From the NCBI GenBank assembly GCA_025358455.1, contig JANYJP010000133.1:10852-74851 (forward strand): DNA of 64,000 bases. The letters run 5' to 3'. The DNA is from Bacteroidales bacterium. GTDB taxonomy: Bacteria > Bacteroidota > Bacteroidia > Bacteroidales > VadinHA17. The translations under genes and the position numbers were made by a program. A model generated the notes under the pieces. The model saw nothing but the letters and a program-made list of their open reading frames with translations, was not told the origin of the DNA and did not search any database. This document shows positions 22,190-49,550 of the stretch, piece after piece; positions within the stretch are counted from its first letter, which is position 1, and each line of letters opens with the position of its first letter.

Positions 22190-22194
22190 TTATA

Positions 22195-22824
22195 CTAATC
22201 CTTTAAATTGGTTAAGTTATCAACATTCATCTCCTCAAAGGTGTTCCCTATCCGGTTTACAAAAACACCCAGGACAAGCACACTTACAAATATGTCAAGC
22301 GTTATTCCTGAATTCACAAGCATTGGCATTTTGTTACCTGCCGAAAGGGATAAAATGAATACTCCGTTTTCTATTACCAGGTAACCCATTATATGGGTAA
22401 TAATCTTTTTTCGGGTGATGATAATAAACAACCCTGATAACAATGCAGAAATTGCTACTAAAAAGAACATTTTACGGATATGTACACCGGTTATAATATT
22501 TGACAAAATGAAGGACCCGAGCAGGAAGCAGGTTATAATAACAACAGAAAGAAAATCAGGCAGATAAGGTTGTGCTTCCCTGACGATATTATTCTTTTTA
22601 ATAACATAATTCAGAAATAACGGAATAGCAAGAGTTTTAAAAACAATTGTCTCAAATAAAATAAAAATCAGGTTGATAGTATTGATCTGGATAAGTTCAA
22701 TGAATGATACTCCAAAAAGAATGATTCCCTGCACTGCAAGTATGTTAATATAGGTAGAAAGTCTGTTTGCAATTCCCATGTAAATAAGGCTGATGGCAAA
22801 TGTTATAAGCAGAATATTGACCAT
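22195..22824 (-). CDS. HyfE-like small membrane subunit (copy 1)
   Basis: 209-aa polytopic protein, paralogous to 30883-31515. It occupies the HyfE position between the HyfC-like and HyfF-like genes. Confidence 0.7.
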   Translation of the reverse strand: MVNILLITFAISLIYMGIANRLSTYINILAVQGIILFGVSFIELIQINTINLIFILFETIVFKTLAIPLFLNYVIKKNNIVREAQPYLPDFLSVVIITCFLLGSFILSNIITGVHIRKMFFLVAISALLSGLFIIITRKKIITHIMGYLVIENGVFILSLSAGNKMPMLVNSGITLDIFVSVLVLGVFVNRIGNTFEEMNVDNLTNLKD

Positions 22825-22838
22825 TTATGATTCTCTTG

Positions 22839-23753
22839 TTAAAAATATTTACCCAATATCAGGAGCACAGCAAAAAATATTAATAGCGAAATAGAACTAA
22901 TAGTGAAAATGAACTGAGGATTATGATTCATCCTGAACCTGGCAATGAAGGATTCTAAAGTTCCAACGACAACAGCAAAAAGAGCCTGTACTCCAATAAA
23001 AATTGGAATGGAATAGTACCATTCTCTTCCCGGTGTAAGAAAAAAGTTAGCTATTAAAGCCCCGTACATGGCAAATTTCAGATTGGTGGCATGAAGGATG
23101 AGTCCAAGATCAAATCCACTGTTGTCAAGGACCATAACCTCATGAATCATAGTCAGCTCAAGATGTGTCTTCGGGTCATCAACAGGCATCCGGCTGTTTT
23201 CGATCATAGCAATTAAAACCAGGACGAATGAAGCCAAGATCCCTATAGCGTAGGAAATATACGAACCAAACTGGATGCCACTAAAAATATCTGCGAAGGA
23301 ACTATATCCGGTAAGAAGAGCCAGTGAACCCATAAGAATGAAGAATGCGGGTTCGGCAAGAAAAGAATACAATGCTTCACGACTGGCTCCCATACCTTCA
23401 AAACTGCTACCGGTATCTAAAGCGCCGATAATACTGAAAAATTTGCCTACAGCCAGTATATAGGCAAAAAACACAAAATCACCATCAAACGAGAATATTC
23501 CTTTCTGATTTCCAAAAGGAATTAGCATGATAGCAATCAATACTGAAGCAAAATAAATATCAGGGGCAATTTTAAAAATAAAACTTGTAGTCTGGCTGTA
23601 CACATTTTCTTTCCGTAATAATCGCCAGATATCTTTCATGGGCTGAAAGATGCCGGGACCCTTTCTGCCTGAGAAAATGCTTTTTGTCCGGATGACTATT
23701 CCTAGGAAGAAGAAGCTTGTTATAATGATAAGAATAAAAACTAACCCGGCCAT
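22839..23753 (-). CDS. HyfC / HycD / NuoH-like membrane subunit (copy 1)
   Basis: NADHdh-family pattern including ENSRMPVDDPKTHLELTMIHEVMVLDNSG. 304 aa. Confidence 0.8.
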   Translation of the reverse strand: MAGLVFILIIITSFFFLGIVIRTKSIFSGRKGPGIFQPMKDIWRLLRKENVYSQTTSFIFKIAPDIYFASVLIAIMLIPFGNQKGIFSFDGDFVFFAYILAVGKFFSIIGALDTGSSFEGMGASREALYSFLAEPAFFILMGSLALLTGYSSFADIFSGIQFGSYISYAIGILASFVLVLIAMIENSRMPVDDPKTHLELTMIHEVMVLDNSGFDLGLILHATNLKFAMYGALIANFFLTPGREWYYSIPIFIGVQALFAVVVGTLESFIARFRMNHNPQFIFTISSISLLIFFAVLLILGKYF

Positions 23754-23754
23754 A

Positions 23755-25797
23755 TTACATCTGTTTTATAAGGTTAAACAAATAAGCCGCTATACCACTT
23801 AAAAGCGAAATAATCATGATGATAAATATGAAAATCACCCCGTATAATATATAATAACGCATATTCCCGTTTTGAATAAACCGGACACGCGCCATTATTT
23901 TATTCATGATTTTCAATGGAAAATCAACAAAGGCAGCTTCAATCTTATCATAAGGATGTGTCTCGGAATGAATCGGACTTGAAAATACTCCTTTTATATC
24001 TCCCTCCTTTTTATTCATTAACAGAAACGGTCTAATCAGCTTTCTGTATGAGCGTACATATGAGCTGGCGGTGTATTGCATTTTACTGTTAGGTGCAACA
24101 TAACCGCAAGCCCAGGTTGGTGTTATAACCTCTTTTTTATTACGAAGAACAAATCGTTTTATTGTCGCTATCAATGCAATTGCTAGTATAAATGCCCAGG
24201 TTACCAGGCTTATCGACCGAAGATTATTGCCGATCATTACTGCCGGGAACCCATCCTTTAAACCGGATGTAAATAAACTTACCGGGTTGGTCAGGAGCTT
24301 TAAGATAAGCTGAGGAAACAGTCCGATAAAAATAATAAATATGACTATAAGATAACCAGGAAATAGTTTTGATTTTTCTGCTTCCTTAATATCATTATCG
24401 AACTGGCTTCTTGCCTCTCCAAGAAATATAATGCCAAAAGCCTTTGTAAAACACAGAAGCGCCAGACCTCCTATCAGAGCAAGTCCGGCAATACATAAAA
24501 TACAAAATGTAGTAATTGATAAAGATCCCGAATGGACACCTTCAAAAAGGCCAAGGTAGATCAAAAACTCTGAAACAAATCCATTGAATGGCGGCAGGCC
24601 GCAGATAGCCATAGCGGAAACAAGGAACAGGAAAGCTGTATGTGGCATTTTTTTGATCAAACCTCCCATACTGTCGATATTTAATGTATGAATTGCCTGA
24701 TAAACTGTTCCGGCCCCGTAAAACAATAATGATTTAAACAACGAATGGTTAAGCACATGCAATAATGCCCCTGCAAAACCGGCAAAAGCCAGGTACGGGT
24801 TTTTTATTCCAATGCCAATCGCCCCGATTCCGATTCCGATTCCGATAATGCCAATATTTTCAATACTATGATATGCAAGCAATTTCTTTAGATTATGCTG
24901 AATAATAGCCAATACCACACCATACACCCCGGATATTATTGAAATAGTTAAAATAATATATCCGATAGTCAGGTAATTCTGGTTCACTAATAGAAGCATT
25001 CTTAAAATACCGAAAATACCCAGCTTGATCATGACCCCCGACATTACTCCTGAAACATGAGCTGGTGCCACAGGATGGGCATATGGAAGCCATGTATGGA
25101 AAGGTACAAAACCAGCTTTAATTGCAAAACCGATAAAAAAACACAGGTACAGGGTAAGGCTAATCAAAGGTGATACTGACGCGCTGTATGCGGTAATTGT
25201 GTTAAAGTCATATGACCCCGTATGCGAACTGATCCATATAAGCCCAATGGTAAGTAATAAAATGCATATATGCGATTGTATCAGGAAGTTGACCGCTGCT
25301 CTTAAAGTTTCCGGTTTTTTGTATTCAAAAATAACCATTATAAACGTCGACAGAGCCATAATTTCCCAGTCATAAAGAAATGCAAGACTGTTCTGTATGG
25401 CAAAAATTCCAATCATACTTGCATGATTGATAATAAAACATACAAAATGCAATGGGATCATTCCGGACTTATTTTCATATTGCTTCATGTAACGCCTGCC
25501 ATAAAGTATGCCGGTAAGAACAGTGAAGTTCATCATTAAAATAAACCAGCCTGAAAGAGCATCTATCCTTATTGGAATTTCGCCAAAAACAGGACCCCCA
25601 TGTATAATTTCAATGTAAGAGTGTCCTAAAACGGCATTGACAGCAACCCATGAACTAATTCCTGCATTAATTATTACGGCGCCAAGAGCAATGTTACCTG
25701 ACCATGCCTCTTTGGAAAAGCTGATAAACAGTATAAATAATGCAGTTACTAAAAGTATGCAGATACTCAAACTCATTTGTGAATGGTAAAATTTCAA
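23755..25797 (-). CDS. HyfB / NuoL-like antiporter-type membrane subunit (copy 1)
   Basis: 680 aa. Motifs WEIMALS, IKAGFVPFHTWLPYAHP and NHSLFKSLLF. The true start may be the internal MSLSICILL. Confidence 0.85.
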   Translation of the reverse strand: MKFYHSQMSLSICILLVTALFILFISFSKEAWSGNIALGAVIINAGISSWVAVNAVLGHSYIEIIHGGPVFGEIPIRIDALSGWFILMMNFTVLTGILYGRRYMKQYENKSGMIPLHFVCFIINHASMIGIFAIQNSLAFLYDWEIMALSTFIMVIFEYKKPETLRAAVNFLIQSHICILLLTIGLIWISSHTGSYDFNTITAYSASVSPLISLTLYLCFFIGFAIKAGFVPFHTWLPYAHPVAPAHVSGVMSGVMIKLGIFGILRMLLLVNQNYLTIGYIILTISIISGVYGVVLAIIQHNLKKLLAYHSIENIGIIGIGIGIGAIGIGIKNPYLAFAGFAGALLHVLNHSLFKSLLFYGAGTVYQAIHTLNIDSMGGLIKKMPHTAFLFLVSAMAICGLPPFNGFVSEFLIYLGLFEGVHSGSLSITTFCILCIAGLALIGGLALLCFTKAFGIIFLGEARSQFDNDIKEAEKSKLFPGYLIVIFIIFIGLFPQLILKLLTNPVSLFTSGLKDGFPAVMIGNNLRSISLVTWAFILAIALIATIKRFVLRNKKEVITPTWACGYVAPNSKMQYTASSYVRSYRKLIRPFLLMNKKEGDIKGVFSSPIHSETHPYDKIEAAFVDFPLKIMNKIMARVRFIQNGNMRYYILYGVIFIFIIMIISLLSGIAAYLFNLIKQM

Positions 25798-25921
25798 TAA
25801 GATAAAAGTCGCAAATGCAACTTTTGTAAACTTTCTTAAAAGTATGTAAAGTGGTTGAATAACACAAATTATTTATTAAATTCGCACCCTGTTTAAAACA
25901 GCCGGTTGAACTAATCAAAGC
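25798..25921. promoter_or_regulatory. 124-bp divergent control region shared by the two Hyf/Ehr-like operons
   Basis: This is the only non-coding DNA between the two divergently oriented first genes. It is AT-rich. Specific promoter elements were not confidently identified. Confidence 0.4.
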
Positions 25922-27946
25922 ATGATGTTTTATGAGGGTAAAGAATTAATTGGTCTTTTATTCAGATTATATGTAATAGTCTTGTTTTCAGGGATAATTG
26001 TGCTCCCGTTTATTCCTCTAAGATTTAAGTCAATCATTAGTATCATTTCTGTTTTCCTAATCGCATTAATTACCAGTTTTATTGCCTTAAATGGATTTTC
26101 AGGCGACGGAATTGAATTTTTGGTCAACGGTGGATCATTTTTCGGTGAAATTCCTTTAAGAATTGATGCCCTGGCGGCATGGTTTATTCTGATAATCAAT
26201 TTTACATCTGTTACAGGGGTATTATATGGTGCGGGATATCTTAAATCATCAACTGTTCACCCTTCTGTAATTAGTTTCCATTGGATCTTATATATTGTAT
26301 TTCAATCATCGATGCTGATAGTGTGCATGGTGCAGCACAGTATAGCATTCATACTGGCGTGGGAGGTTATGTCGTTGTCGTCATTATTCCTTGTGTTATT
26401 TGATTATACGAATCCTAAAGTGCTTAAAGCAGGAATAAACTATCTTGTTCAGATGCATCTGAGTGTAGTTCTCTTAACAGTTGCATTTATCTGGGTTTAT
26501 TTCAAAACCGGCACTTTCGACTTTAAAGGTATAAGTGTATTTTTTGGGTCGAACCCGAACATCTGGCTATTCTTGTTATTCTTCACCGGATTCGGTTTGA
26601 AGGCTGGATTTATTGGATTACATACCTGGTTGCCGCAAGCCCATCCTGCTGCTCCATCACACATTTCAGGAGTTATGTCAGGGGTTATTGTTAAAATGGG
26701 GATTTTTGGTATTTTCAGGATAATAGCCTGTCTGAAAGCCGATTATATTATCCTTGGAGAGATTATTATAACGATATCATTATTAACCGGCCTGTTCGGG
26801 ATAATGAATGCTGCTGTTCACAGGGATTTCAAAAAAATGCTGGCCTATTGTACGATAGAAAATATAGGTATAATAGGTATTGGTATCGGCCTTGGACTGA
26901 TAGGTATGGGCACAGGACAGGGTTTATTGAGTTTTCTTGGATTTGGTGGTGCATTACTGCATGTGCTTAACCATTCGTTATTTAAGTCACTTCTCTTCTA
27001 TTCCGCAGGCTCAGTTTACCGGCAGACTCATACCCGCGATATGGATAAACTAGGTGGATTAATAAAGAAGATGCCAAAGAGCGCTTTATTATTTCTTACC
27101 GGTGCCATAGCTATCGGAGGTATCCCTCCACTCAACGGATTTATTTCTGAGTTTTTGATCTATTGCGGGATTCTTAATGGCATAAATTCTGCTGGTATTT
27201 CGCAGATAACTTTAATGGTAATATTATTTGCAGGTCTCAGTATGATAGGTGGCATATCGTTACTTACTTTTACAAAGGCTTTCAGTACTGTCTTTTTGGG
27301 AACACCTCGTCAGGAATTGAAACACGAACCGGTTGAAGTTTCATTGTTAATGCTTTTACCGCAATATTTTATAGTTGCTGCAATGATTATTATCGCTTTT
27401 TTCCCCGGCTATTTTATTGGGATTATTGGAACTGTGCTTAATAATAATACATTCAATAGTGTCAATTTCAATATTCCTGATTTGCAAAGATATATTGGAA
27501 TACTTAAGAATATTAGTCTGGCTTCATTTCTGTTGATTGCAGTTATTGGTTTTGTATTTCTACTCAGATGGTTTTTTACCAGAGGGAGTGAAGTAAAATA
27601 TTCTTCTACATGGGGTTGTGCATATCCTGCAGCCGGAGACCGGATGCAATATACAGGCAAGTCCTTTTCAAAATCATTCGGGAAACTCTTTAATTTTTTA
27701 ATGATTGAGAAGAAGGGGTATGATGAAATCAGACAAGATGAAACTTTTCCTGAGTCACGAAAGTACCGGTCGTTTTATATCGATATTTTTGAAGCTAAAA
27801 TAATAGGTCCGGTGATGCATCAGATTACACGATTTATCAATCTTTTCCAGTTTATTCAGAATGGGAAGATCCAGGCATATGTTATCTATGGTATCGTATT
27901 TATTCTTGCTATCTTTATTGGAACAATTTTAAACCTTTGGCATTGA
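25922..27946 (+). CDS. HyfB / NuoL-like antiporter-type membrane subunit (plus-strand copy B1, most divergent)
   Basis: 674 aa. Motifs WEVMSLS, LKAGFIGLHTWLPQAHP and NHSLFKSLLF. Confidence 0.85.
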   Translation: MMFYEGKELIGLLFRLYVIVLFSGIIVLPFIPLRFKSIISIISVFLIALITSFIALNGFSGDGIEFLVNGGSFFGEIPLRIDALAAWFILIINFTSVTGVLYGAGYLKSSTVHPSVISFHWILYIVFQSSMLIVCMVQHSIAFILAWEVMSLSSLFLVLFDYTNPKVLKAGINYLVQMHLSVVLLTVAFIWVYFKTGTFDFKGISVFFGSNPNIWLFLLFFTGFGLKAGFIGLHTWLPQAHPAAPSHISGVMSGVIVKMGIFGIFRIIACLKADYIILGEIIITISLLTGLFGIMNAAVHRDFKKMLAYCTIENIGIIGIGIGLGLIGMGTGQGLLSFLGFGGALLHVLNHSLFKSLLFYSAGSVYRQTHTRDMDKLGGLIKKMPKSALLFLTGAIAIGGIPPLNGFISEFLIYCGILNGINSAGISQITLMVILFAGLSMIGGISLLTFTKAFSTVFLGTPRQELKHEPVEVSLLMLLPQYFIVAAMIIIAFFPGYFIGIIGTVLNNNTFNSVNFNIPDLQRYIGILKNISLASFLLIAVIGFVFLLRWFFTRGSEVKYSSTWGCAYPAAGDRMQYTGKSFSKSFGKLFNFLMIEKKGYDEIRQDETFPESRKYRSFYIDIFEAKIIGPVMHQITRFINLFQFIQNGKIQAYVIYGIVFILAIFIGTILNLWH

Positions 27947-29964
27947 TTAATATTCTAATTATCATATTATTATCATCCATCATCTCTGTGCTGTTTGTCA
28001 GTACAAAAAGTAAAGGTATTATTACAGTTGCAACAGTAATTGTCATTGCGTCCCTCAGCAGCTTTTTTTCAATAAAAGCGCTCTTTGGTGAAAGTTATCA
28101 GGTTGTTTTATCAGGAACAATAATGTTTGGAAAAGTGCCGGTAATTATTGATTCTTTATCCGCATGGTTTATACTTACAATTAATTTCACAATTGTGACC
28201 GGCGCTATGTATGGTTTTAATTATATGAAAAAGTACAGGGAAAAGAAGAATGAGATCACACTACACTGCATCGCTTTCCTGCTGGTTTATTTCGCATTAT
28301 TGGGAATAAGTTCTGTTCAAAACGGATTTATCTTTCTTTTACTATGGGAATTAATGGCGCTTTCAGCTTTTACTCTTGTAATATTTGAACACGAAAAACC
28401 TGAAACAATTAAAGCCGGGCTTAATTATCTTATTCAATCACATTTCAGTATCGTTTTCATAATGCTGGGGTTTATATACGTTGCTTTCAAAACAGGAAGT
28501 TACGGGTTTGATGCAATTGTTAGTTTTTCGGGTAATCAATCAGTGCTGGCAGGAACAGTGCTTTTTCTCTGCTTCTTTATAGGTTTTGCTATAAAATCAG
28601 GTTTCGTTCCCTTCCATACCTGGCTTCCTTATGCTCACCCGGCTGCACCTACACATGTTTCCGGAATAATGTCCGGTGTTCTTATTAAGATTGGTATTTA
28701 TGGTATCCTCAGGATGTTACTGTTAATCAGAACCGACTACACTACAATTGGTTATATAATATTGTTTATATCATTATTTACAGGGATTTATGGCGTAATG
28801 CTGGCTACTATCCAACACAACCTTAAGAAGTTACTTGCATACCATAGTGTCGAAAACATTGGTATAATAGGAATAGGAATAGGATTAGGTTGCATAGGAT
28901 TAGGGTCATCAAATAAATGGATGGCAATATTAGGATTCTCCGGTGCATTACTTCATACATTGAATCATTCATTATTTAAATCTCTTCTGTTTTACAGTGC
29001 CGGTAATATTTATCAGGCGGCTCATACACTAAATGTGGAGCGCTTAGGTGGATTAATTAAAAAGATGCCACAAACTGCTGTTCTGTTCCTGGTTGCTTCG
29101 ATTGCCATTTGTGGACTGCCACCTTTGAACGGTTTTATCTCGGAATTTCTTATTTATGGGGGGTTGTACAATTGGCTTTACAGCGCAAATCTGATTTCAC
29201 TCATAGCAATAGTGTTTTCAATAGGTGGATTAGTATTGATAGGAGGTCTGGCACTACTCTGTTTTACAAAAGCATTCAGTATCGTGTTCCTTGGAAATTC
29301 ACGAGAGAAACATGATGATGAAATTTACGAAACAGGTTTCTGGCAGTTATTCCCGATGTATCTTACGGTTTCGTTAATGATATTAATTGGCCTGTTCCCG
29401 TCTTTTTTCATAAATGCATTAAAACGACCTGTTGCCCTTTATTTGCAGAGTGCAGTTTTTGACCAGAATATTATTAAGGTTGGTGTAGTTGATTCGCTTC
29501 AGACTATTAGTTGGTTATTCTTCGGACTTATATTATTTGTATTAGTTATTGTTGGACTAAGAAAACTTATTACCAGGAAAAAAAATATTGAAATTGGATC
29601 AACCTGGGGTTGTGCTTATAACAATCCAACGAGTAAACTACAATATACAGCCAGTTCTTACGTCCGCAGTTACTCAAAACTTGCTAAACCTCTTCTGGAT
29701 ATAGAGAAAAATGAGGTCGGGATTGACGAGGTTTTTCCGGCAGAGAAACATTATGAAACAGATCCTTATGATAAAATTGAGCGCATTTTTATTGACAAAC
29801 CATTAAAACTGATAAACAGGATTACCGATCCGTTTCTATTTCTTCAGAATGGACGTTTACAGACATACATTCTGTATGGAATTATCTTTATTGCCTCTGT
29901 AATTGGCCTTCCTCTTATTATTGAAAAGATAATATCAATTTTTCATTTTTTAAATAATTTGTAA
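27937..29964 (+). CDS. HyfB / NuoL-like antiporter-type membrane subunit (plus-strand copy B2)
   Basis: 675 aa. The TTG start overlaps the upstream stop by 10 nt. Motifs WELMALS, IKSGFVPFHTWLPYAHP and NHSLFKSLLF. This is the closest paralogue of 23755-25797. Confidence 0.85.
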   Translation: MALINILIIILLSSIISVLFVSTKSKGIITVATVIVIASLSSFFSIKALFGESYQVVLSGTIMFGKVPVIIDSLSAWFILTINFTIVTGAMYGFNYMKKYREKKNEITLHCIAFLLVYFALLGISSVQNGFIFLLLWELMALSAFTLVIFEHEKPETIKAGLNYLIQSHFSIVFIMLGFIYVAFKTGSYGFDAIVSFSGNQSVLAGTVLFLCFFIGFAIKSGFVPFHTWLPYAHPAAPTHVSGIMSGVLIKIGIYGILRMLLLIRTDYTTIGYIILFISLFTGIYGVMLATIQHNLKKLLAYHSVENIGIIGIGIGLGCIGLGSSNKWMAILGFSGALLHTLNHSLFKSLLFYSAGNIYQAAHTLNVERLGGLIKKMPQTAVLFLVASIAICGLPPLNGFISEFLIYGGLYNWLYSANLISLIAIVFSIGGLVLIGGLALLCFTKAFSIVFLGNSREKHDDEIYETGFWQLFPMYLTVSLMILIGLFPSFFINALKRPVALYLQSAVFDQNIIKVGVVDSLQTISWLFFGLILFVLVIVGLRKLITRKKNIEIGSTWGCAYNNPTSKLQYTASSYVRSYSKLAKPLLDIEKNEVGIDEVFPAEKHYETDPYDKIERIFIDKPLKLINRITDPFLFLQNGRLQTYILYGIIFIASVIGLPLIIEKIISIFHFLNNL

Positions 29965-29965
29965 A

Positions 29966-30871
29966 ATGTTAAGTATAATACTAATACTATTCACCAGCAT
30001 TTTCTTTACAGGGATAATCATCAGAACCAAAAGCATCGTTTCAGGTAGAAAAGGCCCCGTTATTTTGCAGCCAGTTAAAGATGTGGTCAGGTTATTTAAA
30101 AAAGGTGCTATTTACAGTGAAACAACAAGTATTATTTTCAGAATAGCCCCGGTAATCTACTTTTCCACAGTATTTATGGCTTGCCTTGTTGTTCCGTTTG
30201 GATCATATAAGGGCATTGTAAGTTTCGACGGAGATTTTATTTTCTTCGCATACATTCTTGCTTTAGGTAAATTCTTTAGCATTATTTCAGCTATGGATAC
30301 GGGAAGTAGTTTTGAAGGGATGGGGGCAAGCCGTGAAGCATTATTCTCAATGTTTGCCGAACCTGCCTTCTTCATTCTTATAGGTTCTTTTGCTCTGTTT
30401 ACCGGCAATACATCATTCCATAATATCTTTTCAACATTACATCTTGGCTCGTCAATAACGTATATGTTGGGAGGACTGGCCGCTTTTGTATTGCTGATGA
30501 TTTCAATGATCGAAAATAGCAGAATGCCTGTGGATGACCCCAAAACCCATCTTGAACTAACTATGATCCACGAGGTTATGATACTTGATAACAGTGGTTT
30601 TGATCTTGGTTTAATACTTTCAACCGGATACCTTAAATTTGCAATGTATGGAGCAATTATTGCTGATTTCTTTATAGGCGGATTATTCCTGATTTGGGCT
30701 ATTCCTTTATTTTTAATGATACAGGTACTATATGCAATAATGATAGGGTTAATTGAATCCTTTATGGCTCGCTTCAGAATGAACCATAACCCTCAGTTTA
30801 TATTGACCCTTTCGTCGGTCAGCTTTCTAATCTTCCTGGGCGTGCTACTTGTTTTGGACAAATTTGTTTAA
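29966..30871 (+). CDS. HyfC / HycD / NuoH-like membrane subunit (copy 2)
   Basis: 301 aa. About 70% identical to 22839-23753 over a hand-counted 146-residue stretch. It carries the same ENSRMPVDDPKTHLELTMIHEVM motif. Confidence 0.8.
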   Translation: MLSIILILFTSIFFTGIIIRTKSIVSGRKGPVILQPVKDVVRLFKKGAIYSETTSIIFRIAPVIYFSTVFMACLVVPFGSYKGIVSFDGDFIFFAYILALGKFFSIISAMDTGSSFEGMGASREALFSMFAEPAFFILIGSFALFTGNTSFHNIFSTLHLGSSITYMLGGLAAFVLLMISMIENSRMPVDDPKTHLELTMIHEVMILDNSGFDLGLILSTGYLKFAMYGAIIADFFIGGLFLIWAIPLFLMIQVLYAIMIGLIESFMARFRMNHNPQFILTLSSVSFLIFLGVLLVLDKFV

Positions 30872-30882
30872 TATTTTATATA

Positions 30883-31515
30883 ATGACAAACGTCTTATTA
30901 ATTATATTCATTATCAGCCTTTTATATGTTGCAATTGCTAACAGGATCATTACCTATGTGAGAGTTCTTGCGTTGCAGGGATGTCTGCTCTTTGGCGTTA
31001 CATTCCTTCAGTTGCGTGAAATACAGACATGGAACCTGGTCCTTATCCTGCTCGAGACTATTGTTTTTAAAGCCGTGGCTGTTCCGGTATTTTTGGGTTA
31101 TCTGATTAAGAGAAACAAGATTACCAGGGAAACTGAACCTTATTTGCCGCACTTCATCTCACTGATAATAATTACAATGATTGTAGTTATAACGGTCCTG
31201 CTCGCGAATTCAATACAGGATACCCATCTTGATAAAATATTCTTCATAGTATCTCTCTCAACTCTATTTACCGGGTTGTACTTCATAGCCACAAGGAAAA
31301 AGATTATTACACATGTTATGGGATATCTGATGATTGAGAATGGAGTTTTTGTTCTCTCCCTGGCAGTCGGTAACGAAATGCCAAACCTTGTCAACCTGGG
31401 TATAATGCTTGATGTATTTGCCAGTGTATTGATACTGGGGATTTTCCTCAACAAAATAGGTGATGTTTTTAAAGATGTTGATGTTGACAAGCTTACCAAT
31501 TTGAAAGATTATTAA
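30883..31515 (+). CDS. HyfE-like small membrane subunit (copy 2)
   Basis: 210 aa, a paralogue of 22195-22824. The shared C-terminus is ...KKIITH.MGYL.IENGVF.LSL...LTNLKD. Confidence 0.7.
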   Translation: MTNVLLIIFIISLLYVAIANRIITYVRVLALQGCLLFGVTFLQLREIQTWNLVLILLETIVFKAVAVPVFLGYLIKRNKITRETEPYLPHFISLIIITMIVVITVLLANSIQDTHLDKIFFIVSLSTLFTGLYFIATRKKIITHVMGYLMIENGVFVLSLAVGNEMPNLVNLGIMLDVFASVLILGIFLNKIGDVFKDVDVDKLTNLKDY

Positions 31516-31526
31516 TCACTGAAATA

Positions 31527-32954
31527 ATGACTTTGATATATCTGATATGTGCTTTTGTAATTGCCGGATTACTTTTGATAAACAGGAATACTGTTTTAAA
31601 TTATATAATGGTTATTCTCTTTGGTATTATTCAAACCGGATTTACTATCTACGCAGGGTTTCATTATAAAAATACAGTTTTAGAATATTTTTCTTTCGAT
31701 TCTTTAGGATTGCTTCTTCTGGTTGCTTTGAGCATTGTGACTATTCCAGCCCTTATTCACAGCTATTTGTATATTAAAAGGCACAATGAGACACCCCAGT
31801 CCAGGGCTATATATTTTTCAGCAATTGTCATCCTTTTAACGTCAATCAGCGCTGCTTATCTTGCCAACCATATTGCTGTTATATGGATTTTTACAGAGAT
31901 GACAACATTATCGGCTTCTATGCTGATTTATCATCACAGGAATAAACTTGCATTGGAGGGAACCTGGAAGTATGTGTTTATATGTGCAATAAGTATCACT
32001 TTTGTTTTTATCGGGATTCTTTTTCTAAGCCTTTCGCTTCAGCATGCCGGATCAACTGATCTCTCTTTTTCCAACCTGATGGCTCATAAAGATCAGCTGA
32101 ACACATTCTGGCTTAAACTGGCATTTCTTTTTATTTTTACAGGTTTTACAGCAAAGCTCGGATTGGTCCCGATGTATACAGCTGGTATAGATGCAAAGGA
32201 TAAAGCGCCAGCCCCTGCAGGTGCTTTACTTGCAAGCGTACTGATGAATCTTGGGTTTGTCGGAATATTCAGGTTCTATGCAGTTATTGCTCATACATCT
32301 ATTTTTCACTGGGCTAATCTGATCATCTTTTTTGCGGCTTTTATTTCAATATTTGTTGCAACTGTATACATGACTAAGGTTATGAATATTAAAAGAATGT
32401 TAGCCTATTCCGGAATTGAACATATGGGTATTGTAATGCTTGGAATAGCAGCAGGGGGAATTGGCTATTATGCAGCTATTCTGCATATTATATTGCACAC
32501 TTTTGTGAAATCGGGTATATTTTTTCAATACAATCAGTTATACAGAACGTTTCAGAGCAAAAGTATTCAGCACGTGGGCAACTATTTTAAGTATAATCCC
32601 ACAGGAGCAATTGTGTTGCTTATAGGGTTTATAAGTGCAACTGCTATGCCCCCTTCCGGATTGTTTGTAAGTGAGTTCCTGATCTTCAAATCACTCTTTG
32701 ATGGCAACTATATAGTGTTACTGGTTCTTGTATTACTTTTATTGACGATTGTTATATGGGCCTTTGGAAAGAATATCTTGAAAATTCTGTTCCTTCCCGT
32801 GCCTGATATAGATGAGAGTAAAATACCAAAAATAAGCCCTTGGGAATCATTAACTCAGTATGTATTGATGTTTACAGCAATCTGGCTGGGACTAAATCCA
32901 CCGGCAATATTTGTTCAGTTAATTCAGGATGCAGTTAAAATCTTACCTAATTAA
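31527..32954 (+). CDS. HyfF / NuoN-like antiporter-type membrane subunit (copy 2)
   Basis: 475 aa. Motifs FTEMTTLS, AKLGLVPMY and HTFVKS. Confidence 0.8.
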   Translation: MTLIYLICAFVIAGLLLINRNTVLNYIMVILFGIIQTGFTIYAGFHYKNTVLEYFSFDSLGLLLLVALSIVTIPALIHSYLYIKRHNETPQSRAIYFSAIVILLTSISAAYLANHIAVIWIFTEMTTLSASMLIYHHRNKLALEGTWKYVFICAISITFVFIGILFLSLSLQHAGSTDLSFSNLMAHKDQLNTFWLKLAFLFIFTGFTAKLGLVPMYTAGIDAKDKAPAPAGALLASVLMNLGFVGIFRFYAVIAHTSIFHWANLIIFFAAFISIFVATVYMTKVMNIKRMLAYSGIEHMGIVMLGIAAGGIGYYAAILHIILHTFVKSGIFFQYNQLYRTFQSKSIQHVGNYFKYNPTGAIVLLIGFISATAMPPSGLFVSEFLIFKSLFDGNYIVLLVLVLLLLTIVIWAFGKNILKILFLPVPDIDESKIPKISPWESLTQYVLMFTAIWLGLNPPAIFVQLIQDAVKILPN

Positions 32955-32955
32955 A

Positions 32956-34455
32956 ATGAGCTTCATAACAATAAAAAACCATCAACCAGTTCCGGTTAAC
33001 ACAATACCGGAACTAGAGTATGATATATTTTATAATCTAAATATATCCTTGCTCGCGGAACATCCTGAAAGACATTGCGTTTTGTATTTTGGTTACAGGG
33101 TGCTTGATGTAATACGACTAATGTGTTGTGTTGCAGATGATATTCAGCATAATATCCTGATTTCTTCTTCGATTGTCAGAAGCGATTCCAAACTCAATTC
33201 TTTTTCTGCAAAAAACCTTTCTTTCGAAAGATTTGAACGCGAAATTCATGAAAACTTCGGTATTGATTATATCGATCATCCATGGCTAAAACCGGTTCGT
33301 TATTCTGAATATAGGATTGATAAATCCAAGACGATTCATAACTATCCGTTTTTCAGCATTGAAAGTGAAGAACTTCATGAGGTGGGAGTAGGGCCGGTGC
33401 ATGCAGGTATAATAGAACCCGGACATTTCAGGTTTATATGTAATGGCGAACAGATATTGCATCTTGAAATTCAGTTAGGTTATCAACACAGGGGCTTGGA
33501 ACAATTACTCCTTGATAAAACAAAACTAATTCAGCGAACTACCTTGGCTGAATCCATAGCAGGCGATAGTGTTATTGGCCATACAACAGCATTTGCATAT
33601 TTATTAGAAAGCCTCAGCGGAACAGTACCTGAGAGTGAAGTCATCTATTCACGAACACTTGCACAGGAACTGGAACGAATTGCGGTTCATACCGGCGACT
33701 TAAGCGGAATTTGCACCGATGTTGCCTATCAACTGGGTAGTTCTGTATTCGGAAGACTCAGAACCCCAATAATCAATTTTTTCCAGGAATGGTGCGGGAA
33801 CCGTCTGGCTAAAGGATTAATCCGTACCGGTTACAACCCATTTCCATTTAGCAAAGCTCTGTCTGAAAGGTTAACTACAATATTAGATGCATTTGAACCA
33901 GATTTTGTTGAAATGAATGGCGAGCTTTCAAAACTACCAAGCTCTTTATCGAGATTTGAGAGAACCGGCACCTTGAAATATGATCAGTTATTGTCAATCG
34001 GCACAGTTGGAATGTCAGCCAGGATGAATGCCCTGAACAGGGATATAAGAATGTCGCACCCTTATGGCAGATATCCTGAGTTAAATCACGAACCAATTCT
34101 AAAGCATCATGGTGATGTATATTCAAAAGTACAGATCAGAAAACAGGAGGTATTGCAGTCAATAGAATATATAAGGAAATGGTTGAATCAGATTCCTGAA
34201 TCAACAAAGACTCAACCTCAACCAGTTACTCTGAAGCCTGATTTATTTGCAATCTCTCTGACAGAAGGGTGGAGGGGTGAAATATGCCATGCTGCCGTGA
34301 CAAACAATAAAGGTGAACTGGTGATTTATAAGATTAAGGATCCTTCGTTCCACAACTGGCTTGCGTTGGCATTATCGGTAAGAAACAATGAAATTTCTGA
34401 TTTCCCGGTAATTAATAAAAGTTTTGATTTGTCGTATTGCGGACATGATCTTTAA
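32956..34455 (+). CDS. NuoC-NuoD / HycE-like 'large subunit' homologue lacking [NiFe] ligands (EhrL-like)
   Basis: The ATG at 32956 lies 1 nt after the upstream stop. There is a NuoC-like FERFEREIHENFGI...HPW segment and then GPVHAGIIEPGHFRF...YQHRGLE, as in HycE. The metal-ligand motifs are mutated: SIAGDSVIGH instead of RVCGICGFAH, and DLSYCGHDL* instead of DPCYSCTDR. Confidence 0.8.
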   Translation: MSFITIKNHQPVPVNTIPELEYDIFYNLNISLLAEHPERHCVLYFGYRVLDVIRLMCCVADDIQHNILISSSIVRSDSKLNSFSAKNLSFERFEREIHENFGIDYIDHPWLKPVRYSEYRIDKSKTIHNYPFFSIESEELHEVGVGPVHAGIIEPGHFRFICNGEQILHLEIQLGYQHRGLEQLLLDKTKLIQRTTLAESIAGDSVIGHTTAFAYLLESLSGTVPESEVIYSRTLAQELERIAVHTGDLSGICTDVAYQLGSSVFGRLRTPIINFFQEWCGNRLAKGLIRTGYNPFPFSKALSERLTTILDAFEPDFVEMNGELSKLPSSLSRFERTGTLKYDQLLSIGTVGMSARMNALNRDIRMSHPYGRYPELNHEPILKHHGDVYSKVQIRKQEVLQSIEYIRKWLNQIPESTKTQPQPVTLKPDLFAISLTEGWRGEICHAAVTNNKGELVIYKIKDPSFHNWLALALSVRNNEISDFPVINKSFDLSYCGHDL

Positions 34456-34473
34456 ACCTAAAAGACAAAAACG

Positions 34474-35226
34474 ATGTTAAAGACATTACAAATTCTGTAT
34501 CATCAGGGCAAACAATACATTCCGGATCTAAGAAAAGCAAAAGTTCCCGGAATATTCAGGGGTCGCCCTGAAATCAGCTCTGAAAAAGTTGACGAAAAGA
34601 CTTTAGCGGATATTTGTCCGACAAATGCAATTTTGGGAAATCCTGTAAGGATTGATCTGGGTAAGTGTACTTTTTGTGCAGAATGTTCAAGGCTTTATCC
34701 TGGTAAAATTCATTTTACTACAGATTACAGGATGGCTGTAAATGAAAGAGAAAGGTTGATAATTTCTGAAGGTGTTTTAACCCCGATTACACTGAACCCC
34801 GGTCTGATAAGAAATGAAATTCATAGATTATTTCATGGATCTCTTAAGCTCAGGCAGGTTTCAGCAGCAGGTGACAATAGTTGTGAACTGGAGCTTAATG
34901 CTGCAGGAAATGTAAATTTTGATATAGGTCGGTATGGAATAGAGTTTGTTGCATCACCCCGTCATGCTGATGGGATTGTGATTACCGGACCTGTATCCAA
35001 AAACATGGCTGAACCATTACAGATTACTTATGATGCCATACCGTCACCTAAAATAATTATTCTCGTGGGGACTGATGCAATAAGCGGCGGTATTTTTGAT
35101 AGCAGCCCGGCACTTGACAGAAGATTTATTGAGGAAAACCATATTGATTTGTATGTACCAGGGAATCCGGCTCACCCGCTAACTTTCATAAATGGGATAA
35201 TGGATTTATTAGGAATAAACACCTAA
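34474..35226 (+). CDS. fused HycF(NuoI)-like half-ferredoxin + HycG(NuoB)-like 'small subunit' with degenerate cluster ligands (EhrS-like)
   Basis: The N-terminal part reads FRGRPE...ADICPTNAI...CTFCAECSRLYP. The C-terminal part has the Oxidored_q6-type SPRHADGIVITG motif. Its cluster motifs are altered to GDNSCELE, GTDAISGGIF and PGNPAHP. Confidence 0.75.
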   Translation: MLKTLQILYHQGKQYIPDLRKAKVPGIFRGRPEISSEKVDEKTLADICPTNAILGNPVRIDLGKCTFCAECSRLYPGKIHFTTDYRMAVNERERLIISEGVLTPITLNPGLIRNEIHRLFHGSLKLRQVSAAGDNSCELELNAAGNVNFDIGRYGIEFVASPRHADGIVITGPVSKNMAEPLQITYDAIPSPKIIILVGTDAISGGIFDSSPALDRRFIEENHIDLYVPGNPAHPLTFINGIMDLLGINT

Positions 35227-35353
35227 ATTCCCCTTAGTTTTACCTCCCAACCACCTAACGGGCATAGCCGGTAAAGCTAAGGTTTTAAATATAGTAAAAT
35301 AGTGCCCTTTATACACATCTTAGTAAACTGGTTTTCTCACTCTTTGCAGAGCA

Positions 35354-35640
35354 GGAGATCCTTCGCTGGCGCTACTAACAAACCCCTTTCAGGAGTACCA
35401 TAATGGGATCGGGAGATCCTTCGCTGACGCTCAGGATGACAATGCCCTTGATGATCACAGGGGGCAGAAGTGGCGATTCGCAGGCGAATTGCTTAATTAA
35501 AAAGGTAACTCGAATCGCCACTTCTGCCCCCCATAACCACCTAATTGCCATGTCATTCCGAGCCCCGGCGAGGAATCTCCACTAGCCGTTACAGATCTTT
35601 GTAAATAATGTCATATTGTTTGGTGTGCAAATTTGTATAG
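35354..35640. repeat. composite GC-rich palindromic repeat cluster (MITE/REP-like)
   Basis: Direct-orientation units lie at 35354-35380 and 35411-35459. An inverted unit at 35551-35580 (tgtcattccgagccccggcgaggaatctcc) is followed by a ~60-nt tail. The same module recurs at 61549-61637. Confidence 0.7.
35460..35531. other. perfect 21-bp-stem hairpin nested inside the repeat cluster
   Basis: gggggcagaagtggcgattcg (35460-35480) is the exact reverse complement of cgaatcgccacttctgccccc (35511-35531). The loop is 30 nt. Confidence 0.8.
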
Positions 35641-35671
35641 TAACTTATACAAACTATAGTTTATATAACCC

Positions 35672-35725
35672 CACCCTGTCTGCCGGCAGGCAGGGTGCAT
35701 TTTGCATTTTTACTTTTTACTTTTG
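35672..35725 (+). terminator. putative rho-independent terminator
   Basis: The near-palindrome caccctgtctgcc/ggcaggcagggtg has one mismatch. It is followed by a T-rich tract, cattttgcatttttactttttacttttg. Confidence 0.4.
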
Positions 35726-35742
35726 TCTTTTGTCTTTTAATA

Positions 35743-35786
35743 CCCTTGGCCCTGCGCTCTGTGCCCTTGGCCCTGCGCCCTGCGCC
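35743..35786. repeat. short GC-rich tandem repeat
   Basis: cccttggccctgcgc occurs at 35743-35757 and 35764-35778, followed by a further cctgcgcc. It abuts the ggt stop codon. Confidence 0.7.
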
Positions 35787-35788
35787 TC

Positions 35789-41738: not shown

Positions 41739-41796
41739 TTTATTTAAGATAAATGAGCTTGTTTTATTTAATTTTGCTTGTTCTCACTCCTTGCGC

Positions 41797-42447: not shown

Positions 42448-42758
42448 TTTACTAAGTTTTAGGTTAGATAAACAAATATAAAACAAAAGCCCTTAACCGC
42501 AAAACGACACCATGGCTCATCGGCTCTAAGGCTCAATAGTTACATATCTCAACTTAATACCCATTAAGCCGTTACGCCAATATGCCTTTGCCCTGTTTTG
42601 CCGTATCATCTTTATGAAATCTTTATATGTTATTAAGTAATCCTTATATATTCCTTATGGGCATTGCATTATTTTCGCACGATATACATGCATCAGAAGT
42701 TGATTTATGAAAACCTTTAACTGAAAAAATTGTTATTGGGATTACTGACAGGAAGAAT

Positions 42759-46752: not shown

Positions 46753-46760
46753 TCTCTAAG

Positions 46761-48860: not shown

Positions 48861-48894
48861 AAGAGCAGGAAGTGTAAAATTAACTTAGATTATT

Positions 48895-49467: not shown

Positions 49468-49550
49468 CACAATTAACTGATAACGCATAACCCAATATGG
49501 AAGAACAGGCAGCAGCATTAATTTACAGATTTGAAAAAAGGTAGGACTCT

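What the first reader, a model, noticed from the sequence alone, without database searches (positions are those of the whole stretch)
32956..34455. Hydrogenase 'large subunit' homologue with all four [NiFe] cysteine ligands replaced and no C-terminal processing peptide
I aligned the protein by eye with E. coli HycE as I recall it. The N-terminal metal motif LSDRVCGICGFAHS reads LAESIAGDSVIGHT here (Cys->Ala, Cys->Ser). The C-terminal motif SLDPCYSCTDR reads SFDLSYCGHDL (Cys->Ser, Cys->Gly, with one out-of-register Cys). The protein ends exactly at the position of the mature HycE C-terminus, so there is no extension for an HycI-type protease. The surrounding scaffold is well conserved (GPVHAGIIEPGHFRF, YQHRGLE, and the NuoC-like FERFEREIHENFGI). 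This looks like a maintained protein that cannot be a [NiFe] hydrogenase, analogous to NuoD/MbsL/EhrL.
Basis: partly seen in the sequence, partly recalled or inferred. Interest (0 to 1): 0.75.

Follow-up and report, generated by a model that had tools for sequence, protein, structure and literature searches.

The report
Cofactor-stripped hydrogenase relative (Ehr) in Bacteroidota
This gene encodes the large subunit of an 'Ehr' membrane complex, a known but functionally unexplained relative of energy-converting hydrogenases and respiratory complex I. It has lost its nickel-iron site, and in this bacterial phylum the partner subunit has also lost two of its three iron-sulfur clusters.

Summary
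The ORF at 32956-34455 (499 aa) is a full-length HycE/NuoCD-fold protein. All four [NiFe] cysteines are replaced (A202, S205, S493, G496), and the protein ends at the position of the mature HycE C-terminus. It is intact in more than 120 related loci and under strong purifying selection (dN/dS about 0.07-0.12).

It is not a new kind of protein. It is the large subunit (EhrL) of an energy-converting-hydrogenase-related (Ehr) complex, a class named in 2005-2013 whose function is still unknown. It sits in a conserved seven-gene operon: two HyfB-like genes, then NuoH-like, HyfE-like, HyfF-like, EhrL and EhrS.

The lack of a C-terminal extension is not diagnostic, because the nearest four-cysteine hydrogenases also lack one.

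What I add concerns the small subunit (34474-35226), a HycF-HycG fusion. In non-Bacteroidota relatives it has all 12 cysteines, enough for three [4Fe-4S] clusters. Throughout Bacteroidota only the middle cluster's four cysteines survive. The N2-type site reads D134/C137/D201/N231. The electron wire is therefore cut at both ends, while the residues of the membrane ion-pumping subunits are conserved.

My best inference is a redox-independent ion-translocating machine with EhrL as a non-catalytic coupling cap. Confidence in that mechanism is low.

The parts
32956..34455 (+). EhrL: a NuoC+NuoD/HycE-fold large subunit without [NiFe] ligands (A202, S205, S493, G496). Invariant pocket residues are E154, E199, D204, H209, R440, Y494 and D498.
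34474..35226 (+). EhrS: a fusion of half a HycF/NuoI-type ferredoxin (residues about 19-99) with a HycG/NuoB-type domain (about 128-245). Only one [4Fe-4S] ligand set is retained (C48, C65, C68, C71). The distal-cluster ligands are lost (V39, E41, L44, Y75). The proximal N2-type ligands are replaced (D134, C137, D201, N231).
31527..32954 (+). HyfF/NuoN-like antiporter-type membrane subunit (EhrD-like). E124, K210, K328 and E383 are conserved.
30883..31515 (+). HyfE-like small membrane subunit (EhrC-like)
29966..30871 (+). HycD/NuoH-like membrane subunit (EhrB-like), which docks the L/S pair. Its TM5-6 loop reads E183..R186-P-V-D190-D191..E197.
27937..29964 (+). Second HyfB/NuoL-like antiporter-type subunit (EhrA-2-like). 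E138, K220, K251, H340/H344/K348 and E403 are conserved.
25922..27946 (+). First HyfB/NuoL-like antiporter-type subunit (EhrA-1-like)
25798..25921 (.). 124-bp divergent intergenic region between the Ehr operon and the second membrane-subunit cassette. It is the presumed promoter region; Bacteroidota promoters are not covered by the scan tool.
20768..25797 (-). Divergently transcribed paralogous membrane-only cassette: HyfB-like 680 aa, NuoH-like 304 aa, HyfE-like 209 aa, HyfF-like 473 aa. They are 47-68% identical to their operon counterparts. The cassette has no large or small subunit.
35672..35697 (+). 11-bp GC-rich hairpin followed by a T-run; a possible terminator of the operon

Best explanation
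The ORF encodes EhrL, the large subunit of an Ehr (energy-converting hydrogenase-related) complex. The complex is encoded by the seven-gene operon at 25922-35226.

EhrL keeps the HycE/NuoCD fold and most non-ligand scaffold residues of group 4 hydrogenases. It has no [NiFe] site, so it neither makes nor consumes H2.

In this Bacteroidota lineage the partner subunit EhrS has also lost the ligands of the distal and proximal [4Fe-4S] clusters. Only the medial cluster remains, so no electron path can reach the EhrL pocket.

I therefore infer that the complex works without through-electron transfer, as an ion-translocating machine (H+/Na+ antiport, or pmf-coupled conformational work). Its membrane arm (two HyfB-like, one HyfF-like, HyfE-like and NuoH-like subunits) keeps the canonical Glu/Lys/His relay. 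EhrL and EhrS would sit on the NuoH-like subunit as a non-catalytic cap. The cap's charged pocket (E154, E199, D204, H209, R440, Y494 and D498 in EhrL; D134, D201 and N231 in EhrS) would gate or sense protons or cations. The lone cluster would be structural or a redox sensor.

Shown here: identity, fold, loss of ligands, conservation and operon structure. Inferred: the absence of redox turnover and the antiporter or gating role.

Confidence splits as about 0.9 for 'EhrL of an Ehr complex, not a hydrogenase', about 0.75 for 'no through-electron wire', and about 0.35 for the redox-independent ion-translocation mechanism.
For: Homology and fold:
- HycE 4e-31, MbhL 2e-28, Nqo4 2e-21.
- Foldseek TM 0.84 to HycE.

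Ligand loss in EhrL.

Operon B1-B2-C-E-F-L-S: conserved in essentially all of about 60 genome loci and about 35 metagenome loci that are long enough to show it.

Purifying selection:
- dN/dS 0.115 for L and 0.227 for S against L081.
- Median 0.072 for L over 19 pairs.

Literature definition of Ehr:
- Group-4-like, lacking the CxxC motifs, associated with Mrp-like subunits, function unknown (PMC6349859, PMC10284858, PMC6728331).
- The G. sulfurreducens Ehr spans seven genes (GSU0739-45). The proteomics paper names four of its subunits: EhrA-1 (NuoL-like), EhrC (HyfE-like), EhrL and EhrS (PMC7894505).

EhrS ligand columns, from HMMER alignments to MbhJ, HycG and Nqo6:
- C48/C65/C68/C71 are invariant in 77 and in 43 orthologues.
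- D134, D201 and N231 are near-invariant replacements.
- The distal ligands are gone.

Outgroups with the same gene order (Sulfurospirillum, Acidobacteriota, Gastranaerophilales) keep all 12 Cys, so the loss is derived.

No conserved electron-input gene flanks the operon in 80 loci.

Membrane relay residues are conserved.
Against: - The four cysteines of the medial cluster are invariant. That would be unnecessary for a purely non-redox machine unless the cluster is structural or regulatory.
- The EhrL pocket signature (GD[ST]…SY.G.DL) is the same in relatives that keep a full three-cluster wire. The pocket may therefore serve a redox substrate there, and something related here.
- D134/C137/D201/N231 could bind an unrecognised cofactor.
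- There are no experimental data for any Ehr complex.
- I could not compare directly with the G. sulfurreducens prototype sequence.
- I had no coordinates for the model, so distances are taken from knowledge of complex I and MBH, not measured.
- Assigning the retained cluster as the medial, N6b-like one rests on the standard 2x[4Fe-4S] ferredoxin ligand rule and on my recollection of Nqo9.
Confidence: 0.45

Rival explanations
1. The complex is still a redox-driven ion pump. A soluble donor (ferredoxin or flavodoxin) reduces the single remaining [4Fe-4S] cluster directly. Electrons then reach an acceptor such as menaquinone, or another small molecule bound near the L/S/NuoH-like interface. This might go through an unrecognised cofactor held by D134/C137/D201/N231.
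For: - The four medial-cluster cysteines are invariant in 120 orthologues.
- Relatives with the same EhrL pocket keep a full three-cluster wire, which suggests the ancestral Ehr function is redox.
- A Crp/Fnr-type regulator lies divergently upstream in 10 of 80 loci.
Against: - Three of the four proximal-cluster ligands are replaced by Asp/Asp/Asn. No Fe-S cluster is known with that ligand set.
- The complex I quinone ligands are absent: G203 stands at the Tyr87 position and I153 at the His38 position of Nqo4 (alignment).
- From knowledge of complex I and MBH, the medial cluster lies more than 20 Å from the pocket, too far without a relay.
- The distal entry cluster is also gone.
- No input module is encoded nearby.
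Confidence: 0.2
2. The complex is a pmf-consuming machine that drives non-redox chemistry or binding at the former active site. An example would be vectorial CO2/bicarbonate conversion, as in cyanobacterial NDH-1MS/CupA or DabAB. Another would be binding and release of a metal or cation at the new Asp-rich sites.
For: - New invariant carboxylates stand exactly where the metal centres were: D204 in EhrL, and D134 and D201 in EhrS. Rikenellaceae keep D and E at the two EhrS positions.
- The pumping residues are intact.
- The peripheral arm is strongly conserved, which argues that it does more than cap the membrane arm.
Against: - There is no carbonic-anhydrase-like domain or His/Cys zinc triad.
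- C495 and H497 vary across the family.
- The S-first Ehr locus L083 has different residues (S, E, N, N) at the EhrS positions.
- No gene-context link to carbon concentrating or metal homeostasis is conserved.
Confidence: 0.15
3. It is a cryptic hydrogenase, or another metalloenzyme, that binds a catalytic metal through non-cysteine ligands.
For: - Many non-ligand hydrogenase scaffold residues persist (E154, R440, H209, D498).
- Public annotation calls it 'Ni,Fe-hydrogenase III large subunit' or 'hydrogenase'.
Against: - All four ligands are replaced by Ala/Thr, Ser/Thr, Ser and Gly, which cannot bind Ni-Fe(CN)2CO.
- No electron wire exists.
- The literature treats such proteins as non-hydrogenases (PMC10284858, PMC6728331).
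Confidence: 0.03
4. It is a decaying relic of a hydrogenase operon with no present function.
For: The cofactor ligands have been lost in two subunits.
Against: - The ORFs are intact in more than 120 loci across several Bacteroidota orders.
- dN/dS is about 0.07-0.12, like the flanking housekeeping genes.
- Identity across the phylum is 62-80%.
- The replacement residues are themselves invariant.
Confidence: 0.02

Closest known systems
[quoted passage not shown] Geobacter sulfurreducens GSU0739-45 (EhrA-1 … EhrL, EhrS)
   Same: - Group-4-hydrogenase-like large subunit lacking both CxxC motifs.
- NuoB-like small subunit.
- NuoH-like, HyfE-like and antiporter-like membrane subunits.
- Seven genes, with the same subunit types as those named for GSU0739-45.
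- Function unknown in the literature.
   Different: In the Bacteroidota version EhrS retains ligands for only one of three [4Fe-4S] clusters. Relatives outside the phylum with the same L-S order keep all three. I could not compare directly with the Geobacter sequences, nor check whether this degeneration has been described; Marreiros 2013 and Coppi 2005 are not held.
E. coli formate hydrogenlyase / hydrogenase-4 large subunits HycE and HyfG (group 4a [NiFe] hydrogenases)
   Same: - Best sequence match (4e-31) and best fold match (TM 0.84).
- NuoC-NuoD fusion architecture.
- The operon resembles hyf (HyfB, C, E, F, G, I-like genes).
- The protein ends at the mature HycE C-terminus.
   Different: - No [NiFe] ligands.
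- No separate HycF/HyfH ferredoxin; a half-copy is fused to the small subunit instead.
- No formate dehydrogenase or hyp genes nearby.
- About 21% identity.
Four-cysteine relatives ending …KSFELCYSC.DR (probably group 4f-type hydrogenases) and the S-first Ehr type (S-B-C-E-F-L order, as in Mycobacterium tuberculosis Rv0082-Rv0087)
   Same: They share the KSF.L.Y…D(L/R) C-terminus with no extension, and a HyfB/C/E/F-like membrane set.
   Different: - They form a separate clade from the window protein in a crude NJ tree, at about 28-32% identity.
- The small subunit is encoded first and lacks the ferredoxin half-domain.
- An ArsR-type regulator lies nearby.
- Some keep the four small-subunit cysteines (L082) and some keep none (L083).
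Respiratory complex I NuoD/Nqo4 with NuoB/Nqo6
   Same: Both are a homologous pair that has lost the [NiFe] site and sits on NuoH to couple events in the cavity to antiporter-like subunits.
   Different: - Complex I keeps cluster N2 and has the quinone ligands Tyr87 and His38.
- Here N2's ligands are D/C/D/N, and the Tyr and His positions are Gly203 and Ile153.
Pyrococcus Mbx/MBS (MbsL)
   Same: Both are hydrogenase-derived, with partial or complete loss of the [NiFe] ligands and an ion-translocating membrane arm.
   Different: - MBS keeps all three [4Fe-4S] clusters and reduces polysulfide (from literature knowledge).
- The sequence match is much weaker (4e-10).
- MBS has a 13-subunit Mrp-type architecture.

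Membership tests
[NiFe] hydrogenase, group 4 large subunit | N-terminal RxCGxCxxxH motif with two Cys ligands | tested here: not met
   HMMER alignments to HycE and MbhL place A202 and S205 at the Cys columns. Among 81 orthologues, 202 is A/T/S/V and 205 is T/S/N, with one C.
[NiFe] hydrogenase, group 4 large subunit | C-terminal DPCxxC motif with two Cys ligands | tested here: not met
   S493 aligns to the third Cys in the HMMER alignment; G496 falls in the fourth Cys column of the MAFFT alignment with the 4-Cys representatives. Both are invariant in the orthologues. C495 is out of register and variable.
[NiFe] hydrogenase, group 4 large subunit | Large-subunit fold and homology | tested here: met
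   Pfam Complex1_49kDa 1.7e-29. Foldseek match to HycE with TM 0.84.
[NiFe] hydrogenase, group 4 | Small subunit with four Cys for the proximal [4Fe-4S] cluster | tested here: not met
   The ligand columns read D134, C137, D201 and N231.
[NiFe] hydrogenase, group 4 | Hyp maturation genes present in the genome | not testable with these tools
   None were seen among the ORFs annotated in the window (not every ORF was scanned) or in the flanks of the 80 loci.
Ehr complex (Coppi 2005; Marreiros 2013) | Group-4-like large subunit lacking the [NiFe]-binding CxxC motifs | tested here: met
   The definition is quoted in PMC6349859 and PMC10284858.
Ehr complex | Encoded together with a NuoB-like small subunit, a NuoH-like subunit, a HyfE-like subunit and Mrp/NuoL-like antiporter subunits | tested here: met
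   The G. sulfurreducens cluster also has seven genes, and the four subunits named in PMC7894505 (EhrA-1, EhrC, EhrL, EhrS) all have counterparts here.
Ehr complex | Sequence or phylogenetic grouping with the prototype EhrL (GSU0744) | not tested
   The prototype sequence could not be obtained with these tools. Indirect support: relatives include a Gastranaerophilales (Melainabacteria) protein, a group in which Ehr was reported (PMC6349859).
Complex I NuoD/NuoB quinone-reduction module | Quinone-binding Tyr87 and His38 (Nqo4 numbering) and a four-Cys N2 cluster in NuoB | tested here: not met
   Alignment to Nqo4 places G203 and I153 at these positions. The N2 ligands are replaced.
Mbx/MBS | Three intact [4Fe-4S] clusters and a Mrp-type 13-subunit membrane arm | tested here: not met
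   Only one ligand set is retained. The operon has seven genes. The match to MbsL is weak at 4e-10.
Mrp cation/proton antiporter | MrpA-G subunit set without NuoH/NuoD/NuoB homologues | tested here: not met
   The operon contains NuoH-, NuoD- and NuoB-like genes and no MrpB/E/F/G-type genes. The resemblance is functional only and is inferred.

The most novel reading that the evidence does not exclude
Across Bacteroidota, a hydrogenase/complex-I-type machine has been stripped of its catalytic metal site and of both ends of its electron wire, yet it is kept under strong selection. It would then be the first complex-I-superfamily member with a full NuoH/NuoD/NuoB-type coupling module that runs without redox chemistry. 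The invariant carboxylate/amide residues that replaced the Fe-S and Ni-Fe ligands (EhrS D134, D201, N231; EhrL D204) would form a proton- or cation-binding gate that controls the antiporter-like subunits.
Probability: 0.3. Interest if true: 0.75.

Novelty: new variant of a known kind. Interest (0 to 1): 0.42.

Why it matters
Ehr complexes are widespread. Here there were more than 8000 database clusters, at least 585 species-level genomes with close relatives of this one, and 436 clusters at 50% identity below E=1e-30. No function has ever been shown for them. They are often cited as a 'missing link' between hydrogenases and complex I.

Public records name this protein 'Ni,Fe-hydrogenase III large subunit', 'hydrogenase' or 'NADH-quinone oxidoreductase subunit C'. 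Metabolic reconstructions of Bacteroidota from sediments, wetlands and guts could therefore wrongly infer H2 metabolism or an extra complex I.

The Bacteroidota form is a natural experiment. The coupling module and pump are conserved, but the electron path is gone. If it still moves ions, that separates the conformational coupling machinery of the complex I superfamily from redox chemistry. It would also offer a simpler system for studying how the NuoH/NuoD/NuoB interface drives antiporter-like subunits. Cultured carriers exist, for example Arcticibacter eurypsychrophilus.

Tried and rejected
- Foundational papers: I tried to read the two founding Ehr papers (Marreiros 2013, Coppi 2005) by DOI. 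Neither is held. I therefore cannot say whether the degenerate EhrS of Bacteroidetes was already noted.
- Literature searches for EhrL/EhrS, Rv0082-87 and group 4/Bacteroidetes found no functional or structural study.
- An exact look-up of the window protein found no record.
- Partner genes: I looked for a conserved partner gene (formate dehydrogenase, NuoEF, CODH, hyp) in the flanks of 80 loci and found none. The only recurrent neighbour is a Crp/Fnr-like regulator, in 10 loci.
- EhrS model: the AlphaFold2 model from a shallow alignment was poor (pLDDT 48.9; only residues 31-80 exceeded 80). I did not use it for fold search.
- Models come without coordinates, so the pocket could not be inspected directly. 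I used alignment to solved homologues instead.
- NCBIfam has no model that reaches its cutoff for any of the seven proteins.
- Rfam and tRNA scans of the window found nothing.
- Cys495 as an alternative ligand: rejected, because it is S or A in 40% of orthologues.
- Missing C-terminal extension as evidence of lost maturation: rejected, because four-cysteine relatives also lack it.
Full report
**1. The observation**

The window carries an intact 499-codon ORF at 32956-34455 on the + strand (ATG start, TAA stop). A longer reading from an ATG at 32929 is not the real start. The preceding gene stops at 32954, and all orthologues begin at the position of 32956.

Pfam finds Complex1_49kDa (1.7e-29) and a sub-threshold Complex1_30kDa hit in the N-terminal part. 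Against solved structures the best matches are:

| Structure | Chain | E-value |
|---|---|---|
| E. coli HycE | 7z0s_E | 4e-31 |
| P. furiosus MbhL | 6cfw_L | 2e-28 |
| T. thermophilus Nqo4 | 2fug_4 | 2e-21 |
| MbsL | 6u8y_L | 4e-10 |

The HMMER alignment to HycE pairs LSDRVCGICGFAHS with LAESIAGDSVIGHT, and the start of DPCYSCTDR with DLSYC. That places A202, S205 and S493 at three of the four ligand columns. The alignment stops at query residue 495. Extending it in register puts G496 at the fourth ligand column and the last residue of the query opposite the Arg after which HycE is processed. The MAFFT alignment with the four-cysteine representatives independently puts their fourth Cys in the G496 column. 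The processing site itself is from the literature as I recall it.

An AlphaFold2 model built on 55 homologues has pLDDT 85.3 and pTM 0.89. Its best PDB matches are HycE (TM 0.84 over 505 alignment columns) and the E. coli NuoCD fusion (TM 0.83). This confirms the NuoC-like N-terminal domain that Pfam only hints at.

**2. Is the protein maintained?**

Protein searches saturate at 8000 hits, and the best 120 are all at least 75% identical. A scan of species-representative genomes found at least 585 relatives. The best 80 are 62-80% identical. Nearly all carry Bacteroidota labels: Bacteroidales, Prolixibacteraceae, Paludibacter, Lentimicrobiaceae, Chitinophagales, Saprospirales, Flavobacteriales, and the isolate Arcticibacter eurypsychrophilus. 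Two MAGs are labelled otherwise (L016 Acidobacteriota, L066 Omnitrophica). The ORF is full length in all of them.

Selection measurements:
- Against a 98%-identical relative (L081), dN/dS is 0.115 for this gene. The other operon genes range from 0.00 to 0.23 and the flanking housekeeping genes from 0.05 to 0.18.
- Over 19 orthologue pairs with unsaturated dS, the median is 0.072.

Residue states across 81 genome-derived and 44 metagenome-derived orthologues:
- Position 202 is A/T/S/V and position 205 is T/S/N, with one Cys.
- S493 and G496 are invariant.
- The out-of-register Cys495 is C/S/A, so it is not a ligand.
- E154, E199, D204, H209, R440, Y494 and D498 are invariant.

The protein is not decaying, and the replacement residues are themselves fixed.

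**3. What it is**

The gene is sixth in a tightly packed operon. Gaps run from -10 to +18 bp. The order is HyfB-like (25922-27946), HyfB-like (27937-29964), HycD/NuoH-like (29966-30871), HyfE-like (30883-31515), HyfF-like (31527-32954), the large subunit, and a NuoB-like small subunit (34474-35226). This order is conserved in essentially every locus long enough to show it.

[quoted passage not shown] They are relatives of group 4 [NiFe] hydrogenases whose large subunit lacks the CxxC motifs. They are encoded with Mrp/NuoL-like subunits. Their function is unknown (PMC6349859, PMC10284858, PMC6728331). The G. sulfurreducens prototype spans seven genes (GSU0739-45). Its named subunits include EhrA-1 (NuoL-like), EhrC (HyfE-like), EhrL and EhrS (PMC7894505). 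The window operon fits this definition and subunit list, so the ORF is an EhrL. I could not obtain the Geobacter sequence for a direct comparison.

An exhaustive search of representatives at 50% identity gave 436 clusters below 1e-30. Of the 128 among the best 150 that cover both motifs:
- 108 have none of the four cysteines.
- 13 have one.
- 7 have all four.

Most share the signature AE[SR][IV][ASC]GD[ST]…H and a C-terminus KSFNLSY[CSA]G.DL with nothing after it. The seven four-cysteine proteins (…KSFELCYSC.DR) also end without a tail. The missing C-terminal extension is therefore a trait of this whole neighbourhood of group 4, not a sign of lost maturation.

Named relatives come from Rikenellaceae, Candidatus Magnetoovum, Acidobacteriota, Sulfurospirillum, Candidatus Binatia and Gastranaerophilales. 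Public names vary: 'Ni,Fe-hydrogenase III large subunit', 'hydrogenase', 'NADH-quinone oxidoreductase subunit C', 'hypothetical protein'.

**4.

The 250-aa product of 34474-35226 is a fusion. Residues 19-99 match the HycF/NuoI-type 2x[4Fe-4S] ferredoxin (NCBIfam PRK12387 3e-6, TIGR01971 6e-5). Residues 128-245 match HycG/MbhJ/NuoB.

HMMER alignments to MbhJ, HycG and Nqo6 put D134, C137, D201 and N231 at the four ligand columns of the proximal (N2-type) cluster.

In the ferredoxin part the first CxxCxxC is gone (V39, E41, L44), and so is the last Cys of the second motif (Y75). C48-P and C65xxC68xxC71 remain. By the standard ligand rule for 2x[4Fe-4S] ferredoxins, these four form one complete cluster. 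From my recollection of Nqo9 it is the N6b-equivalent one, which sits next to N2.

| Cluster | Window residues | State in 77 genome and 43 metagenome orthologues |
|---|---|---|
| Distal | V39, E41, L44, Y75 | Cysteines absent apart from isolated sequences |
| Medial | C48, C65, C68, C71 | Invariant |
| Proximal (N2-type) | D134, C137, D201, N231 | D134 77/77, C137 71/77, D201 76/77, N231 77/77 in the genome set |

Relatives outside the phylum with the same L-then-S order keep all twelve cysteines while their large subunits are already cysteine-less. These are Sulfurospirillum L085, Acidobacteriota L086 and Gastranaerophilales L087, each with a six-gene B-C-E-F-L-S operon. A Rikenellaceae operon (L089) shows the degenerate pattern with different residues (D, V, E, A). 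The loss of the distal and proximal clusters is thus derived within Bacteroidota.

A second architectural type has the order S-B-C-E-F-L, as I recall for M. tuberculosis Rv0082-87, often with an ArsR-type regulator. It lacks the ferredoxin half-domain. Its small subunit has either all four cysteines (L082) or none (L083). In a crude neighbour-joining tree, this type groups with the four-cysteine hydrogenases. The L-S type forms the other clade. The tree is distance-based and midpoint-rooted, so it is only indicative.

**5. The membrane arm**

- The HyfB-like subunits align to MbhH and HycC with the canonical relay preserved. For the second copy this is E138 (TM5), K220 (TM7), K251 (TM8), H340/H344/K348 and E403.
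- Equivalent residues are at least 95% conserved across orthologues in both HyfB-like copies and in the HyfF-like subunit.
- The NuoH-like subunit aligns to HycD (1.6e-23). It keeps the TM1-2 loop and most of the acidic TM5-6 loop, although P-E-A-E reads P-K-T-H here.

The ion-translocation hardware looks functional.

**6. Mechanism**

Shown here:
- There is no [NiFe] site.
- There are no ligands for the cluster that feeds that site in all characterised relatives, and none for the distal entry cluster.
- No complex-I-type quinone ligands are present. G203 and I153 stand where Nqo4 has Tyr87 and His38.
- No electron-input module is encoded nearby in any of 80 loci.
- Both peripheral subunits and the pump residues are strongly conserved.

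Inferred: electrons cannot traverse the peripheral arm, so the complex probably works without redox turnover. My best guess is a cation/proton antiporter or a pmf-coupled conformational device. EhrL and EhrS would form a charged, gated cap on the NuoH-like subunit, and the lone cluster would be structural or a redox sensor. I give this mechanism about 0.35.

Evidence on the other side:
- The medial-cluster cysteines are invariant.
- The same EhrL pocket signature occurs in relatives with an intact wire.

These keep a redox rival alive at about 0.2. A pmf-driven non-redox chemistry at the new Asp-rich sites is possible at about 0.15. A cryptic hydrogenase or a dead relic are effectively excluded.

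**7. Novelty**

I rate the whole as a new variant of a known kind with moderate interest.

It matters mainly for two reasons. Ehr function is an open question, and this lineage offers a coupling module without a wire. The genes are also widely mis-named as hydrogenase or complex I subunits.

Noticed in passing
window 20768-25797 (- strand); also L081, L091 (divergent), L035 and L128 (downstream of EhrS): There is a second, paralogous membrane-only cassette: HyfB-like 680 aa, NuoH-like 304 aa, HyfE-like 209 aa and HyfF-like 473 aa. They are 54%, 68%, 58% and 47% identical to the operon copies. The cassette has no large or small subunit. It lies next to the Ehr operon in a few lineages only. A NuoH-like subunit without its own peripheral partners is odd. 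It may share EhrL/EhrS or work as a membrane-only unit.
   Followed up: partly
L088 10001-11503 (Bacteroidales MAG GCA_017417385.1; protein P0126): This is a stand-alone EhrL homologue, 47% identical, with the motifs AGDS…SYCGHDL. It sits directly after mutS, with no membrane or small-subunit genes within 10 kb on either side. The same protein is seen on 10 contigs.
   Followed up: no
L036 and L130 (Paludibacter-type loci): Three HyfB-like genes lie in tandem before the NuoH-like gene, instead of two. The number of antiporter-like subunits therefore varies within the phylum: one in Rikenellaceae and the outgroups, two in most Bacteroidota, three here.
   Followed up: no
upstream flanks of 10 of 80 genome loci (e.g. 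L073 676-1383, - strand): A Crp/Fnr-family regulator (cNMP-binding domain plus HTH) is divergently transcribed about 200 bp upstream of the operon. It is the only recurrent neighbour. It is not present in the window.
   Followed up: partly
window 29966-30871, residues 183-197 of the NuoH-like subunit: The TM5-6 loop motif E..R.PFD.PEAE.EL of HycD/NuoH reads ENSRMPVDDPKTHLEL. Two conserved glutamates are replaced by Lys and His, and K193 and H195 are conserved in at least 95% of orthologues. This loop faces the large/small-subunit cavity in complex I.
   Followed up: no
window 35227-35788: There is a 560-bp gap with no convincing ORF and no Rfam match between EhrS and the convergent gamma-glutamyltranspeptidase gene. 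It contains an 11-bp GC-rich hairpin with a T-run at 35672-35697.
   Followed up: partly
window 45067-52918: A complete kdpA-kdpB-kdpC operon is followed by the kdpD sensor kinase and a kdpE-type response regulator. A PHO4-type phosphate transporter and a PhoU-like gene lie at 40494-42486. These are ordinary and are not linked to the Ehr operon in more distant relatives.
   Followed up: no
database records for P0010, P0053, P0271, P0298, P0313, P0339 and others: Public names for this one protein family are inconsistent and misleading: 'Ni,Fe-hydrogenase III large subunit', 'hydrogenase', 'NADH-quinone oxidoreductase subunit C', 'NADH dehydrogenase subunit', 'hypothetical protein'. No NCBIfam model reaches its cutoff for any subunit.
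   Followed up: yes
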